A stretch of 64,000 nt of DNA from Octopus sinensis (Eukaryota). Positions 4,067 through 30,203 of this stretch are shown here, piece after piece. The notes under the pieces are model-generated. The model saw only the letters and a list, made by a program, of their open reading frames with translations. It did not search any database and was not told the DNA's origin. Positions within the stretch are counted from its first letter, which is position 1. Each line of letters begins with the position of its first letter. Both the position numbers and the translations under genes were made by a program. Where the stretch lies: positions 102,796,001-102,860,000 of the forward strand of contig NC_043005.1 of assembly GCF_006345805.1 (NCBI RefSeq), read 5' to 3'.

Positions 4067-4213
4067 GGAGCAGGAGTGGATTGCTTTCGAACCACATGGT
4101 TCTGGGTTCAGTCCCACAGCGTAGCATCTTGAGCAAGTGTCTTCTACTATAGCCTCGGGCCGACCAAAGCCTTGTGATTGGATTTGGTAGACGGAAACTG
4201 AAAGAAGCCCGTC
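4067..4213 (+). mobile_element. tRNA-derived SINE family A, 5' half
   Basis: Matches the head of the full copies at 12036 and 16482 (ccacatggttc.gggttcagtcccac...ggaaactgaaagaagcccgtc). Confidence 0.85.
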
Positions 4214-5095: not shown

Positions 5096-5400
5096 TCATT
5101 CAACCGGTAATTTCTCCTACTACAGCCTCGGATCCATCAAAGCATCCCGAGTGGATGTGTTAGATGGAAATTAAAATATATCTATGTGTGTATCTTCGTG
5201 TTCATGCTTGTATCCCACCACCGTTTCGCAACCGATGGTGGTGTGTTGGCGTCCCCATAACATTAGCGGTTCGGCAAAAGGGAATTGATAGAATAATTAA
5301 TAAGCTTAACACATAAATCCTGGAGTCGATTTGTTCGACAAAAACCTTTGAAGATGGTGACACAGCCTCGTCGCAGTCAAATGATTGAAGTAAGTAAAAT
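5096..5400 (+). mobile_element. Degenerate SINE family A
   Basis: ttagcggttcggcaaaag...gtcgatttg.tcgac...gcagtcaaatga shared with the family A copies. Confidence 0.7.
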
Positions 5401-8193: not shown

Positions 8194-8571
8194 CTTTTAT
8201 TCTTTTACTCATTTCAGTCATTTGACTGCGGCCAGGCTGTAGCAGCGCCTTTAGTCGAAAAAATCGACTTATTCTTTGCAAACCTAGTACTTATTCTTTT
8301 GCCGAATCGTTAAGTTACGGGGACGTAAACACACTAACATCATTTGTCAAAGTGATCAAAAAGGGGGACAAACACAGACACACACACTAACATATATATA
8401 CATATATACGACGGCCTTCTTTCAGTTTCCGTCTGCCAAATCCACACAAAAGGCTTTGGTCGGCCCGAAGCTATAGCAGTAGACACCTTGCCAAGGTGAC
8501 ATGCAGTGTGACTGAAGCCGGAATCATGTGTTTTGAAAGGATGTTTCTTACCACACAGCCACACCTGCGCC
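8194..8571 (-). mobile_element. tRNA-derived SINE family A
   Basis: Reverse complement of the 12036/16482 copies, including the central (TA)(TG) tract and the aaaagagt tail. Confidence 0.9.
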
Positions 8572-12035: not shown

Positions 12036-12457
12036 GGCGCAGGAGTGGCTGCGTGGTAAGTAGCTTGCTAACCAACCACAGGGTTCCGGGTTCCGTCCCA
12101 CTGCGTGGCACCTTGGGTAAGTGTCTTCTGCTATAGCCCCGGGCCGACCAATGCCTTCTGAGTGGATTTGGTAGACGGAAACTGAAAGAAGCCCGTCGTA
12201 TATATGTATATATATATATGTGTGTGTGTGCGTGTATGTTTGTGTGTTTGTGTTTATCCCCCTAGCATTGCTTGACAACCGATGCTGGTGTGTTTACGTC
12301 CCCGTCCCTTAGCGGTTCGGCAAAAGAGACCGATTGAATAAGTACTGGGCTTACAAAAGAATAAGTCCCGGGGTCGATTTGCTCGATTAAAGGTGGTGCT
12401 CCAGCATGACCGCAGTCAAATGACTGAAACAAGTAAAAGAGTAAAAGAGTAAAGAGT
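12036..12457 (+). mobile_element. tRNA-derived SINE family A, full length
   Basis: A box (tggc..tggtaag) and B box (ggttccgtccc), CORE-like ccttgggtaag, internal microsatellite, (gtaaaaga)n tail. Confidence 0.92.
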
Positions 12458-16481: not shown

Positions 16482-16893
16482 GGCGCAGGAGTGGCTGTGT
16501 GGTAAGTAGCTTGCTTACCAACCACATGGTTCCGGGTTCAGTCTCACTGCGTGGCATCTTGGGCAAGTGTCTTCTGCTATAGCCTCGGGCCGACCAATGC
16601 CTTGTGAGTGGATTTGGTAGACGGAAACTGAAAGAAGCCTGTCGGATATGTATATATATATATGTGTGTGTGTATATTTGTGTGTCTGTGTTTGTCCCCC
16701 TAGCATTGCTTGACGACCGATGCTGGTGTGTTTATGTCCCCGTCACTTAGCGGTTCGGCAAAAGAGACCGATAGAATAAGTACTGGGCTTACAAAGAATA
16801 AGTCCGGGGGTCGATTTGCTCGACTAAAGGCGGTGCTCCAGCATGGCCGCAGTCAAATGACTGAAACAAGTAAAAGAGTAAAAGAGTAAGAGT
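16482..16893 (+). mobile_element. tRNA-derived SINE family A, full length with TSD
   Basis: Complete copy flanked by a ~21-bp duplication, aaac(g/a)taactatatctta(a/g)ta (16461-16481 / 16894-16914). Confidence 0.95.
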
Positions 16894-25736: not shown

Positions 25737-26648
25737 ATTAATGTTGCAATTATTTAAAACATATAAATGCGTAGAATGTATCACGAAGAGTTGTAACAAA
25801 CAAAGGCAGTATATAACATAGCTTGACTGGCTAAACACATGGCCACAGGAGTGACTTTAAAGGATTAGAAAATGACTTTGGTGAAGTTCCTAAAAGCAAC
25901 GAACCGCAAAAAGACCGCATAAAAATGTTAATAAACCCCCAGAAAAGACTATTAACGATGTTGGTCAAGTCCATGGATGCATGCACGTAAGCCTAAAGCC
26001 GTTTATCTTAGAAAATGCCGGTTGACTCCTGGTTGTCAAAGTTAAGCTATTTCGGGGTTAGTTGAAATGAAGATGAGTGTACTCACTGAGCAATGTAATG
26101 TTTGATATAAATACGTGTCATATAGACATAGTTAGAATATGTTTGACTTGAGATAACCTGGAGCAAAATTATTACAATCATAACCGTCCATGATAGTTTT
26201 AACTTTAAATGACACACTTATACCAACGATTTTAGTTATATTTTAGAATGTCTTATTGGAGAAGAAAGCAATCATGTTTATCTCTGTATTCTCTAATAAA
26301 TAAATCGGTACTAAACGTTAGAAAATCTTAATGGTAGTGGAAGTAATAAATACTGACACATTTTGTGGTCTGTACTAAGAAATATAGAAAACGGAATTAA
26401 AAATAATAACAGGTGTCTTTCGACTAAGGACGAGTTAAATTAAGCTGGCGTGGAATATCGATGTTGCACGGACAAGAGCCAGGCCAAGAAAGAAAGATCA
26501 GGCTTGGCCGAACGCCGTTCCCGTGGGAAGAGAAGAGAGAGAGAGAGGCATATATATATATATGTATACACATATATACATATATACATACATACATACA
26601 TGCACACACACACACACCCGAACACACACACACACATATATATATATA

Positions 26649-27206
26649 TTGCGTTGTCCGGAAAGTTTATGCCGATTTATAGTAGCATACCTTTCGACTT
26701 ATTTTAGAACATGATTCAGTCCATAACATAAGATTTGACTACACCACCATTTAGAGCACAGTATAAGCTATCTTTTCGTGGAAGAAGGTTTATATTCTTA
26801 TAACCTGTGTTAATTCTGTAATCCTTTAAAATGAAGATAAAAAGTCCATTTTCGGCACTTGATGCGATAGGAACCCGACAAAAGTTGCTGCAGCTCGGCT
26901 CGAATGTGTTACCCCTCCCTCCATCTTTACCAGATATGGCGCCATCGGATTTCTACTAATTCAGGTCTCTGCAGAATAGTAAATGGTAAAAATTACAATT
27001 CCTTGGATGATCTAAAAGGATACCTTGATGAATTCTTTGCCATGAAACCACCTCAATTCTGGGAAGAGGGTATTTTCAAGTTTAAGGAAAGGTGGAGACG
27101 TATCTTGCAACAAAACGTTTCATATTTGGTTGATTTAAAATGTAATGTCAAGTATTTATTAACCTTTTTCTTTCCTTTCGAAATCGACACGAACTTTCCG
27201 GACAAC

Positions 27207-27210
<4 letters not shown>
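26649..27210 (+). mobile_element. Non-autonomous mariner with both TIRs
   Basis: TIRs ttgcgttgtccggaaagtttatgccgattt / aaatcgacacgaactttccggacaacccaa, with TA flanks. Same internal deletion as 14272. Confidence 0.92.
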
Positions 27211-27271
<61 letters not shown>

Positions 27272-27300: not shown

Positions 27301-27346
<46 letters not shown>

Positions 27347-28069
27347 GCGCAGGAGTGGGTGTGTGGTAAGTAGCTTGCTAACGGTTGCTTCTGCGCATGT
27401 GCGAGTCAGTGTTGTGTTCGGCACTGAAGCGGTGAAGACGTGCCATTGAAGCCGTCTTGAATTGAAAACTTTGGAAGCCCCATGTAAGGTAAGATTCTGT
27501 TTTCTGGGTCCAGTCGGAGTTTTTGTTGAGAATTGTTTTTTACAGGCAGGAAGTCCTACTGGATTCAGAATTCTGATTCTGCAGACATGTGGCAAATATA
27601 TTTTTCTCGCTGCGAAAATTTTTAGGGGCGTATCCGTCTTCGATAAATTGAGTAAATATTTCTCTCACGTAATTGTGAGAATTGTATTGTGCTGTGAAGA
27701 ACTTTTATGAATTGTGAAAACTACTACTTCGCAAGAAAATTATAAAAATAAGCCACTATTGGACTACCTTTCGGACCCATTTTTGTGGAGGTTGTGTTGC
27801 AGTTGCGGCGTTCCAGGTTCAACCCAGGCCGGGAGTACCGCAAGGCCAGAATATTTTTGCTGTGTTTTTTCTGTTTATTAACTTTCTTTTGAACTTCATT
27901 TAACCCTCCCTTTTGTTTTTTTTCTTTATTGCGACTTTCCGTTGATTTCTTCCCTTCTGTTGTGCTTTCTCCATTTTGTTTTTTAAAAAATCTATCAAAT
28001 TTTATTTGGACTTTTCGACATTTTTCTTCCTGCTTTTTGAGTTTAATTTGAATATATTTTTAAAAAAAC

Positions 28070-29314
28070 ATGGCAATGAAAAATAACAAAATTTTGGAGT
28101 GGGAAATCATACCACCTAAAAAGTGGTTAAATGACCGTGAAGATAGGACGGTGGTGTTGAGAACCTACTCCAAGGCACTCGACACCATCGCCTTATTCGA
28201 AAAGACGGCAATTGAGGAGGAGTTGGAAGAGTATTTGCCAACAATTAAATTCATTTCCAGGGGTGTCAAATATGCAACGGTGTGGTTGCTATTTGACACC
28301 CCTGAAGAGGCTTGCAAATTTGCTAGCAAACCCCTGGAGGGTAAGGAAATCTTATTCCTGCCCACGTACAAAAAAAAGAAATTGATGAAAGCTTGGATAT
28401 GCGGATTGCCACCCGACATAGAACCCGAGTGGATAGAGGAGACTATCCGCCGGGGTCTGGGTGACAGCGAACCTAAGCTCGTCAATGTAAAAGTTCTTCC
28501 TGCGGCTGCTTGGGTTGGGTCAAAAGTAATTTTGACCCTGTGGACCCAATCAGCCAATCTGGTTCTTCCAGATTTTTTGAAAATGGCCGGGTGCAGGTAC
28601 CCGGTGATGCTTGAGGGTCACCCCCCTAAGTGTCATCGGTGCTTGGAGTCCGGCCACATAAAGAAGAACTGTCCTCGGGAACAAAATAGGATCCCGGAAC
28701 AGTTAAGTAAAACCCCTCTAGAAGAGGGAACGATAACGGCCGAGAAAGCGGAGGACTCCTCAAACAGAGGCCGAAAGAGGAAGGTGAGCAACAATGGGTG
28801 CTCACCAAGGGATAATAGGGATGAGGAGAGGAAGGCGAATCTTCCAGCCACGGAGGAGACGCACCCTCCCTCAGTTGAAAAGGGAAAAAAAAAGAAAAAG
28901 AGGAAGAAAAACGGGACATTACCGGCTGTCAGTGTAGCACCGGAATGTCCCGGAACTACGTCGGTTGGGGTTGTGCCACCGACAAGAGAAGGAATACCGT
29001 TGGCGGGAACTGCGCCGCCAACGAATGAACTGAACGTATTGGTCCTCTTCTATAGAGGAGGAGAAATTGAAAAAGTGATGGAAGAGCACTACAAGGGAGC
29101 ACCTTTAGCCTTCACACAGGACCCCGAATGGCCTCCGCAGGTAGCTGTGGAGGCCGTGACGTTCGACGTGACGCTTGGGCTAAAGGAGTTCAATGAAGAC
29201 TATAACTTGGTCCCGGGCGACGCTGACTCGGAACTTGATTACGTTCTGAGGGAGGCGTGGTTGATGGTGGAGGGCGCGGGCACAAGCTATTTCGAGGACG
29301 ATATGTATTATTAG
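28070..29314 (+). CDS. Gag-like/LINE ORF1 nucleic-acid-binding protein with CCHC zinc knuckle (414 aa)
   Basis: Uninterrupted ORF with aaacATGG start and CHRCLESGHIKKNC (CX2CX4HX4C). RRM-like N-terminus (VWLLFDTPEEA, AWICGLPPDI) and a basic KKKKKRKK tract. Confidence 0.85.
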   Translation: MAMKNNKILEWEIIPPKKWLNDREDRTVVLRTYSKALDTIALFEKTAIEEELEEYLPTIKFISRGVKYATVWLLFDTPEEACKFASKPLEGKEILFLPTYKKKKLMKAWICGLPPDIEPEWIEETIRRGLGDSEPKLVNVKVLPAAAWVGSKVILTLWTQSANLVLPDFLKMAGCRYPVMLEGHPPKCHRCLESGHIKKNCPREQNRIPEQLSKTPLEEGTITAEKAEDSSNRGRKRKVSNNGCSPRDNRDEERKANLPATEETHPPSVEKGKKKKKRKKNGTLPAVSVAPECPGTTSVGVVPPTREGIPLAGTAPPTNELNVLVLFYRGGEIEKVMEEHYKGAPLAFTQDPEWPPQVAVEAVTFDVTLGLKEFNEDYNLVPGDADSELDYVLREAWLMVEGAGTSYFEDDMYY

Positions 29315-29323
29315 TAATGGACT

Positions 29324-29436
29324 TAAGTCCAAAAATTGAAAAATTGTAAGAGGATTAATACCTCGTTTTGTATTAATAATTGACTGCTAAGTCCAAAAAT
29401 TGGAAAAATTGTAAGAGGTTTAATACCTCGTTTTGT
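29324..29436 (+). repeat. ~48-bp direct repeat in the retroposon 3' UTR
   Basis: taagtccaaaaattg(g)aaaaattgtaagagg.ttaatacctcgttttgt at 29324-29371 and 29388-29436. Confidence 0.9.
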
Positions 29437-30203
29437 GTTTATCTTTAAAAAGAACAATGTTTTAGAGAAGCGAAAGCCGGCGGGCGCTTTTTGTCTTCTT
29501 CCATCCTTATCTTTCTTTCATTATCATTCACCTCATTAATGTCCTCGTCCAGCCCGCAAAGCTAACTTAATCTGTGTACTGCCTTTATGGCAAATGTTTT
29601 GAAATAAAGTAGCTTGCTAACCAACCACATGGTTCCGGGTTCAGTCCCACTGCGTGGCAACTTGGGCAAGTGTCTTCTGCTATAGCCCCGGGCCGACCAA
29701 TGCCTTGTCAGACGGAAACTGAAAGAAGCCTGTCGTATATATGTATATATATATATGTATGTGTGTGTGTTTGTGTGTCTGTGTTTGTTCCCCTAGCATT
29801 GCTTGACAACCGATGCTGGTGTGTTTACGTCCCCGTCACTTAGCGGTTCGGCAAAAGAGACGGATAGAATAAGTACTGGGCTTACAAAAAGAATAAGTCC
29901 CGGGGTCGAGTTGCTCGACTAGAGGCGGTGCTCCAGCATGGCCGCAGTCAAATGACTGAAATAAGTAAAAGAGTAAAAGAGTAAAAGAGTGGTTTCAATT
30001 CCTAGTCTGGGCTATTCATTGCGTTCTTGAGTAATACACGTAATCTCACGTTGCTCTGTAACCACTTCTACACTCAAGGTACGATGAGCGGTGCACCAAT
30101 TCAATCATATATGAACTTATACACACACACACATAAATATATATACATGCACACATCTATATTTATTTATTTATCTATCTATTTCTTTATTAAAGAAACA
30201 TAA

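What the first reader, a model, noticed from the sequence alone, without database searches (positions are those of the whole stretch)
27383..29606. Intact ORF1-only retroposon inserted into a SINE with a perfect 15-bp TSD
Seen: a 2224-bp element with both ends defined by aagtagcttgctaac. It has a long 5' UTR, one intact 414-aa ORF with a CCHC knuckle, a short 3' UTR ending at AATAAA, and no RT/endonuclease ORF, LTR or TIR. Established: LINE insertions truncate from the 5' end, so keeping the 5' UTR and ORF1 while lacking ORF2 between TSDs is not ordinary truncation, and mammalian HAL1 elements have this ORF1-only design. Inference: this is a recently active non-autonomous family that supplies its own RNA chaperone and borrows ORF2 from an L1/Tx1-type LINE. 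It is the only long intact ORF in the window.
Basis: partly seen in the sequence, partly recalled or inferred. Interest (0 to 1): 0.8.

Follow-up and report, generated by a model that had tools for sequence, protein, structure and literature searches.

The report
SINE-targeting ORF1-only retroposon family
This is one copy of a family of jumping genes that encode only a predicted RNA-binding protein and land at one exact spot inside the genome's very common SINE repeat, likely by borrowing the copying enzyme of a full-length LINE that uses the same spot and by carrying a short piece of that target at their own front end.

Summary
The element is real and multi-copy. 151 exact 3' ends exist in the genome and 145 run into the same nucleotide of a tRNA-type SINE; all 60 loci inspected sit there. 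The 414-aa protein is predicted as two RRMs plus a CCHC knuckle and shows purifying selection (dN/dS 0.09-0.27 between families). Its family never continues into its own ORF2 in the loci held. I found the likely helper: a 5.4-kb L1-group (probably Tx1) LINE with endonuclease and RT, in the same site, sharing a 4-bp 3' hairpin but only 27% ORF1 identity. The left copy follows the element's 5' UTR family (23 of 29 versus 1 of 29 on the right), so it is likely carried on the RNA, as in some R2 elements. Several sister families, module swaps and tandem arrays share the site. Each ingredient has a precedent (HAL1, HeT-A, Tx1 targeting of other transposons, R2 junctions); I did not find the combination in print, but Repbase and the HAL1 paper could not be checked.

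The parts
27346..27367 (+). Head of the host tRNA-type SINE (positions 1-22, with an A-box-like TGGnTGTGTGG; box motif recalled)
27368..27382 (+). Left 15-mer: target-like leader that across copies follows the element's 5' UTR family, likely RNA-borne rather than a true duplication
27383..28069 (+). 5' UTR; its first ~340 nt are one of several exchangeable 5' modules; donor-like AG/GTAAG near 27486-27494
28070..29314 (+). Intact ORF1, 414 aa: predicted RRM-RRM (about aa 11-181), CCHC knuckle (aa 188-201), low-confidence linker and C-terminal part
29315..29606 (+). 3' UTR, with a two-copy ~65-bp repeat (29331-29377, 29396-29442); ends GAAATA without poly(A)
29580..29592 (+). 4-bp hairpin TGCC-5 nt-GGCA shared with the autonomous LINE and sister families; likely ORF2 recognition signal
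29607..29621 (+). Right 15-mer: the target SINE's own sequence (varies across loci like free SINE alleles)
29607..29987 (+). Body and tail of the host SINE (positions 23-411, with the B-box-like GGTTCAGTCCC; motif recalled)

Best explanation
The element is a copy of a non-autonomous, ORF1-only retroposon family that inserts at one fixed nucleotide of an abundant SINE, and it is likely copied in by the ORF2 of a co-targeting L1-group (probably Tx1) LINE. Shown: fixed site, many copies, ORF under purifying selection, a LINE at the same site with the same 3' hairpin, a family-specific left 15-mer. Inferred mechanism: the element is transcribed from within the target 15-mer; its own RRM-RRM-CCHC protein coats the RNA in cis; the LINE's ORF2 binds the 3' hairpin, nicks the bottom strand at GTGGT|AAG and primes reverse transcription at the GAAATA end; the finished cDNA ends in the target-derived leader, anneals to the cut top strand and primes the second strand, giving precise full-length insertions with an apparent 15-bp TSD. 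The re-formed site next to the SINE body is used again, which builds head-to-tail arrays.
For: Site: 29 of 30 loci; 145 of 151 exact 3' ends followed by AAGTA; 60 of 60 fetched loci at the site, including 4 of the 6 exceptions, each with a point change. Helper: ~5.4-kb elements at the same site with ORF1 plus APE, RT and zf-RVT, best solved relative human L1 ORF2p at E 3e-65; 89 exact 3' ends, 30 of 30 inspected at the site, one with an extra T; an intact 1137-codon ORF2 lies directly upstream of an ORF1-only copy (L185); similar ages, nearest-neighbour divergence 0.9% versus 1.3%. Hairpin: 36 of 36 cells paired, 2 of 4 pairs with a two-sided change in 9 hand-picked ends. Selection: family A variants shared by 3 or more copies 41 N/43 S (omega 0.27) versus private 308 N/119 S (0.74), P 6e-5, 77 copies; N-terminal dN/dS 0.09-0.27 in 10 pairs of ORF1-only copies. 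Leader: 5' family C has the 14-nt allele on the left in 23 of 29, on the right in 1 of 29, in 0 of 21 free SINEs (P 2e-9); for A-type 5' ends whose right copy is one of the two common other SINE alleles, the left ends in CTAAC in 9 of 9; four 5'-truncated LINEs keep only about 0-7 nt of the 15-mer. 54 of 60 loci retain the full 5' end.
Against: No biochemical or RNA evidence; transcription start, cis action of ORF1p and hairpin binding are inferred. In 4 of 29 family C and 1 of 25 informative A-type insertions the left copy equals the target allele, so target DNA is sometimes kept. Family C (8 N/2 S shared variants, 26 copies) and LINE ORF1 (14 copies) show no within-family selection signal, with few variants. 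C-terminal dN/dS is higher (0.2-0.9) and its model is unreliable (pLDDT below 50). Only 8 of 68 family A copies have an open ORF. The hairpin is only 4 bp and the ends were chosen by me. Tx1 placement was not tested on a tree with named references (one search gave none).
Confidence: 0.8

Rival explanations
1. Hitch-hiking: one insertion into a SINE was amplified as a composite SINE by the SINE's own partner, so there is no real targeting.
For: Nearly all copies lie in the SINE; occupied SINE bodies are more alike (0.91) than free ones (0.86, n=23).
Against: SINE bodies next to 94 inserts are 91% alike while the inserts' own 3' UTRs are 97% alike; right-hand alleles vary like free SINEs; many different 5' and ORF families, an autonomous LINE and truncated LINEs share the nucleotide.
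Confidence: 0.04
2. Ordinary true 15-bp TSD, with left-right differences from later mutation or gene conversion among copies of a family.
For: Left equals right in 29 of 64 A-type and 4 of 29 C-type insertions, including a shared rare variant in L002.
Against: The left allele is family-specific and nearly absent on the right and in free SINEs; truncated copies lack the 15-mer.
Confidence: 0.08
3. The ORF1 is kept not for its own RNA but as a trans-acting helper or competitor for the LINE, or the family has its own unsampled autonomous parent with this ORF1.
For: Only the best candidates were scored (150 of 12122), so an unsampled ORF1+ORF2 relative cannot be excluded; selection shows use, not in cis or trans.
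Against: Of 152 loci (overlaps included) with this ORF1 type, 4 have ORF2 hits, each in a separate LINE across a junction; 18 ORF1-only rows form one long-branched clade apart from the 5 sampled LINE ORF1s.
Confidence: 0.08

Closest known systems
HAL1 (half-L1) of mammals
   Same: Non-autonomous L1-group derivative encoding only ORF1p, arisen more than once (PMC5753468, passages read); a second ORF1-only lineage is seen here too.
   Different: ORF1p is RRM-RRM-CCHC, not Transposase_22; strict single-site targeting; no poly(A) tail; target-derived leader. The HAL1 paper itself was not held, so non-mammalian cases it may list were not seen.
Target-specific Tx1 clade LINEs (Tx1L into Tx1D, Keno, Kibi, Koshi, crocodilian Tx1-Mar) and SINEU
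   Same: APE-type LINE inserting into another repeat, with non-autonomous passengers that share the target, often in tandem (PMC4494074, introduction and part 3 of 5 read).
   Different: Targets listed there are DNA transposons, LTR elements, snRNA or 5S genes, satellites and microsatellites, not a SINE head; the passenger there is a non-coding SINE, here a selected protein-coding element; targeting here is to one nucleotide.
Drosophila HeT-A
   Same: Gag/ORF1-only, lacks pol, proposed to use TART or TAHRE Pol, site-restricted (PMC4467039, passages read); head-to-tail arrays.
   Different: HeT-A goes to chromosome ends and serves the host; it is of the Jockey group (recalled). This family uses an internal endonuclease site in a dispersed SINE.
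R2 elements whose RNA keeps upstream 28S sequence
   Same: [quoted passage not shown]
   Different: R2 is autonomous, RLE-type and uses an HDV-like ribozyme; no ribozyme was tested here and the 5' UTR families are unlike each other.

Membership tests
HAL1 | Encodes only ORF1p, no ORF2 | tested here: met
HAL1 | Multi-copy family propagating as such, not one-off deletion | tested here: met
HAL1 | Derived from mammalian-type L1 (Transposase_22 ORF1p) | tested here: not met
   No Transposase_22 hit; tandem RRM fold and ZCCHC3-like features
HAL1 | Poly(A) tail and unspecific insertion as for L1 (recalled) | tested here: not met
Tx1 clade (helper LINE) | ORF2 with APE endonuclease, RT and C-terminal zinc motif of the L1 group | tested here: met
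Tx1 clade (helper LINE) | ORF1 with RRM and CCHC, described as consistent with Tx1 in non-mammalian animals | tested here: met
   PMC5203782 passages
Tx1 clade (helper LINE) | RT groups with named Tx1 references in a tree | not testable with these tools
   None of the 120 listed homologues carried a Tx1 name
Tx1 clade (helper LINE) | Target sequence preference (common, not defining) | tested here: met
Processed copy of a host gene | Single parent gene, poly(A), random sites | tested here: not met
R2-like 5' joining | RNA begins in target sequence | tested here: inconclusive
   Junction alleles fit; no raw RNA reads available
tRNA-derived SINE (host) | tRNA-like head with A and B boxes | tested here: inconclusive
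   Box-like motifs seen by eye (recalled consensus); ARAGORN and Rfam gave nothing; 26606 exact empty sites

The most novel reading that the evidence does not exclude
An old, self-standing lineage of protein-coding passengers of a Tx1-type LINE that parasitises a SINE's promoter: the RNAs carry target sequence at their ends for precise full-length insertion, swap promoters and protein halves inside head-to-tail arrays, and by parting the A and B boxes switch off every SINE they enter, giving a three-level transposon ecosystem and a compact site-specific integration system not yet described.
Probability: 0.3. Interest if true: 0.8.

Novelty: new variant of a known kind. Interest (0 to 1): 0.62.

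Why it matters
It shows that an ORF1-only design can persist to near-saturated synonymous divergence under purifying selection beside a helper with a very different ORF1, which makes the open question of what ORF1p does for its own RNA testable by comparison. It extends sequence-specific LINE targeting to a SINE head, and it warns that a perfect TSD at a fixed target can be RNA-borne. A natural APE-type system that gives mostly full-length, base-precise insertions in trans is also of interest for site-specific integration.

Tried and rejected
PDB sequence search with the ORF1 protein: nothing under E 1. Protein database: 2 hits, both labelled octopus predicted proteins, no function. C-terminal 100 aa: no Atlas hit above 0.80. 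ORF2 search at E 1e-100 gave none; the RT-region search gave no named Tx1. ARAGORN and Rfam did not name the SINE head. Expression: no RNA holder listed on record; four runs laid were contigs only, two guessed RNA, so they are not used as evidence of expression. Earlier scan findings: none by sequence or words. Papers not held: PMC2923044 (HAL1) and PMC85248. Literature searches that found no description of this system: (listings), and term look-ups in the 2026 octopus repeat annotation PMC13282606, which lists 13 recently active L1-Tx1 families but has no hit for ORF1, nested or non-autonomous (supplements not examined). Repbase and Dfam are not available here. Enrichment of re-targeted sites (3 of about 55 with an element on the left) is significant against 0.7% occupancy (P 0.007) but not against 2% (P 0.10), so it is not claimed. 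The binomial figure printed used an arbitrary null and is not used. The 60 loci are 60 of the 100 listed of 151; some repeat earlier loci.

Full report
Observation. The sequence is as described: a 2224-bp insert between two copies of AAGTAGCTTGCTAAC, with one 414-aa ORF. The flanks are the two parts of a SINE of which intact copies lie at 12036 and 16482. The 15-mer is simply SINE positions 23-37. The element ends in GAAATA with no poly(A); AATAAA is completed by the target. The only useful protein homologue in the large database is labelled as an octopus predicted protein at 62% identity, so the genome is likely an octopus (inference).

Family and target. A DNA search scored 40 of 3102 candidates and gave 9 full-length matches at 94-100% and many that start at position ~343, that is with another 5' module. 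In 29 of 30 loci the 3' end joins SINE position 23; the thirtieth has lost its 3' end. Genome-wide, 151 exact 28-nt 3' ends exist and 145 continue with AAGTA. I fetched 60 of the 100 listed, including 4 of the 6 exceptions: all 60 are at the site. The hairpin-plus-site junction occurs 749 times. For one exact allele there are 188 occupied and 26606 empty sites. 54 of the 60 keep a full 5' end. Only 8 of 68 family A copies have an open ORF; 84 of 210 indels lie in homopolymer runs, so some breaks may be assembly errors.

Protein. AlphaFold2 on a 25-row alignment models about aa 11-200 with block pLDDT 66-90 and the rest below 50 from aa 207. Foldseek returns tandem-RRM proteins (hnRNP A1, HuR, Hrp1; E about 1e-4, low TM-scores), and the Atlas returns CCHC and ZCCHC3 RNA-binding-domain clusters at 0.91-0.93. 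The four knuckle residues are invariant. RRM plus CCHC is the type I ORF1p, said to fit the Tx1 clade in non-mammalian animals (PMC5203782, passages). Variants shared by three or more of 77 family A copies have omega 0.27 against 0.74 for private ones (P 6e-5); family C and LINE ORF1 show no such signal with few variants. Between ORF1-only copies of different families the N-terminal dN/dS is 0.09-0.27 with dS up to 2.5. Families are mosaics: C has B's N-terminus and A's C-terminus and 3' UTR; D pairs an E-like N-terminus with B's C-terminus.

Helper. Among 30 junction loci picked by the site alone, 11 carried a different 3' end. Six of 8 extended were 4.5-5.5-kb elements with ORF1 (27% to the query) and an ORF2 with APE, RT and zf-RVT, nearest to human L1 ORF2p among solved structures. 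It has 89 exact 3' ends, and 30 of 30 inspected are at the site. L185 holds an intact ORF2 directly upstream of an ORF1-only copy. The clear shared sequence with the ORF1-only elements is the terminal TGCC-n5-GGCA hairpin and AAT..GAAATA, with two two-sided changes among 9 ends that I chose. Ages overlap (0.9% and 1.3% nearest-neighbour divergence). In the tree, 18 ORF1-only rows form one clade (100/100) on a long branch, apart from 5 LINE ORF1s; the tool warns of long-branch joins. Two further ORF1-only copies group separately, nearer the LINEs. No ORF1 of the query type runs into its own ORF2 in 152 loci held, overlaps included.

The TSD. Comparing left and right 15-mers in de-duplicated insertions: for 5' family C the left copy is AAGTAGCTTCTTAC in 23 of 29, the right in 1 of 29, free SINEs in 0 of 21 (P 2e-9). 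For A-type 5' ends (64), 25 have a right copy other than the leader; the left is the exact leader in 15, the leader with one extra base in 7, with one substitution in 2, and equal to the target in 1. Some right-hand differences may be later mutations, so the cleaner test is the 9 with a common alternative SINE allele: all 9 have CTAAC on the left. Four 5'-truncated LINEs keep about 0-7 nt. So the left copy mostly travels with the element, while the right is the target. This parallels the annealing model for R2 RNAs that keep upstream 28S sequence (PMC3774820, abstract). The match in this window is perfect because leader and target allele happen to be the same.

Arrays. Up to four elements of different families lie head to tail in one SINE, each separated by one 15-mer (L100, L103, L105, L106). 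None of the 60 A/C-type 3' ends or 30 LINE ends is followed by another element, while 15 rows have an element on their left and 5 have one on their right. New insertions therefore likely prefer the junction next to the SINE body. Hitch-hiking inside a composite SINE is unlikely: SINE bodies beside 94 inserts are 91% alike, the inserts 97%.

Mechanism. Shown: site, copy number, selection, co-targeting LINE, shared hairpin, family-specific leader. Inferred: transcription from the leader, cis coating by ORF1p, hairpin recognition by the LINE ORF2p, nick at GTGGT|AAG, cDNA annealing at the 5' junction. The insertion falls between the A-box-like and B-box-like motifs (recalled consensus), so it would silence the host SINE; at about 1% occupancy a genome-wide effect is doubtful.

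Comparison and verdict. It works like HAL1 (PMC5753468) and HeT-A (PMC4467039) in design and like Tx1-Mar with SINEU (PMC4494074) in targeting, but fails HAL1 membership on ORF1 type and targeting; Tx1 membership of the helper is likely, untested by tree. Searches and the 2026 octopus repeat paper (main-text look-ups only) showed no description, but Repbase, the HAL1 paper and supplements were not seen. Contigs of the family occur in runs under three organism labels, which shows presence as sequence only. Verdict: new variant of a known kind, interest 0.62.

Noticed in passing
L186, L187, L195, L197, L198, L204: A sister LINE family (about 65% ORF2 identity) is followed by the same sequence in these loci; in L186 and L187 an 18-nt direct repeat (TTTCATCGCTACCTGGTG, one mismatch in L186) flanks it inside another repeat, suggesting a second fixed target.
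   Followed up: partly
L098:4536-5576 (-), L203:7507-8445 (-): A second, shorter ORF1-only lineage in the same SINE site, 38-40% identical to the LINE ORF1 and outside the main clade: likely an independent origin.
   Followed up: partly
window 27486-27494 and L010, L019, L096, L102: A splice-donor-like GGTAAG lies 60-110 nt into several unrelated 5' UTRs, including the LINE's; family C in L117 lacks it in the first 260 nt.
   Followed up: no
L004, L005, L103, L111, L116, L203 and others: Left leaders with one extra T (AAGTAGCTTTGCTAAC) recur in several families and were not seen as terminal right copies; may mark slippage at the 5' join.
   Followed up: no
window 26621-27238: Degraded element with ~58-bp inverted ends and broken transposase-like fragments (mariner-like by recalled motifs), just left of the host SINE.
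   Followed up: no
L092: An ORF1-only copy interrupted by a ~3.4-kb foreign insert with no hit to this LINE's ORF2.
   Followed up: partly
L189:700-1250: A fragment resembling the C-terminal part of the ORF1-only protein (about 40%) lies upstream of a non-SINE-targeting LINE.
   Followed up: no
window 4075-4213, 5176-5399, 8194-8571, 12036-12457, 16482-16893: Further copies or pieces of the host SINE in the window, without this insertion.
   Followed up: partly
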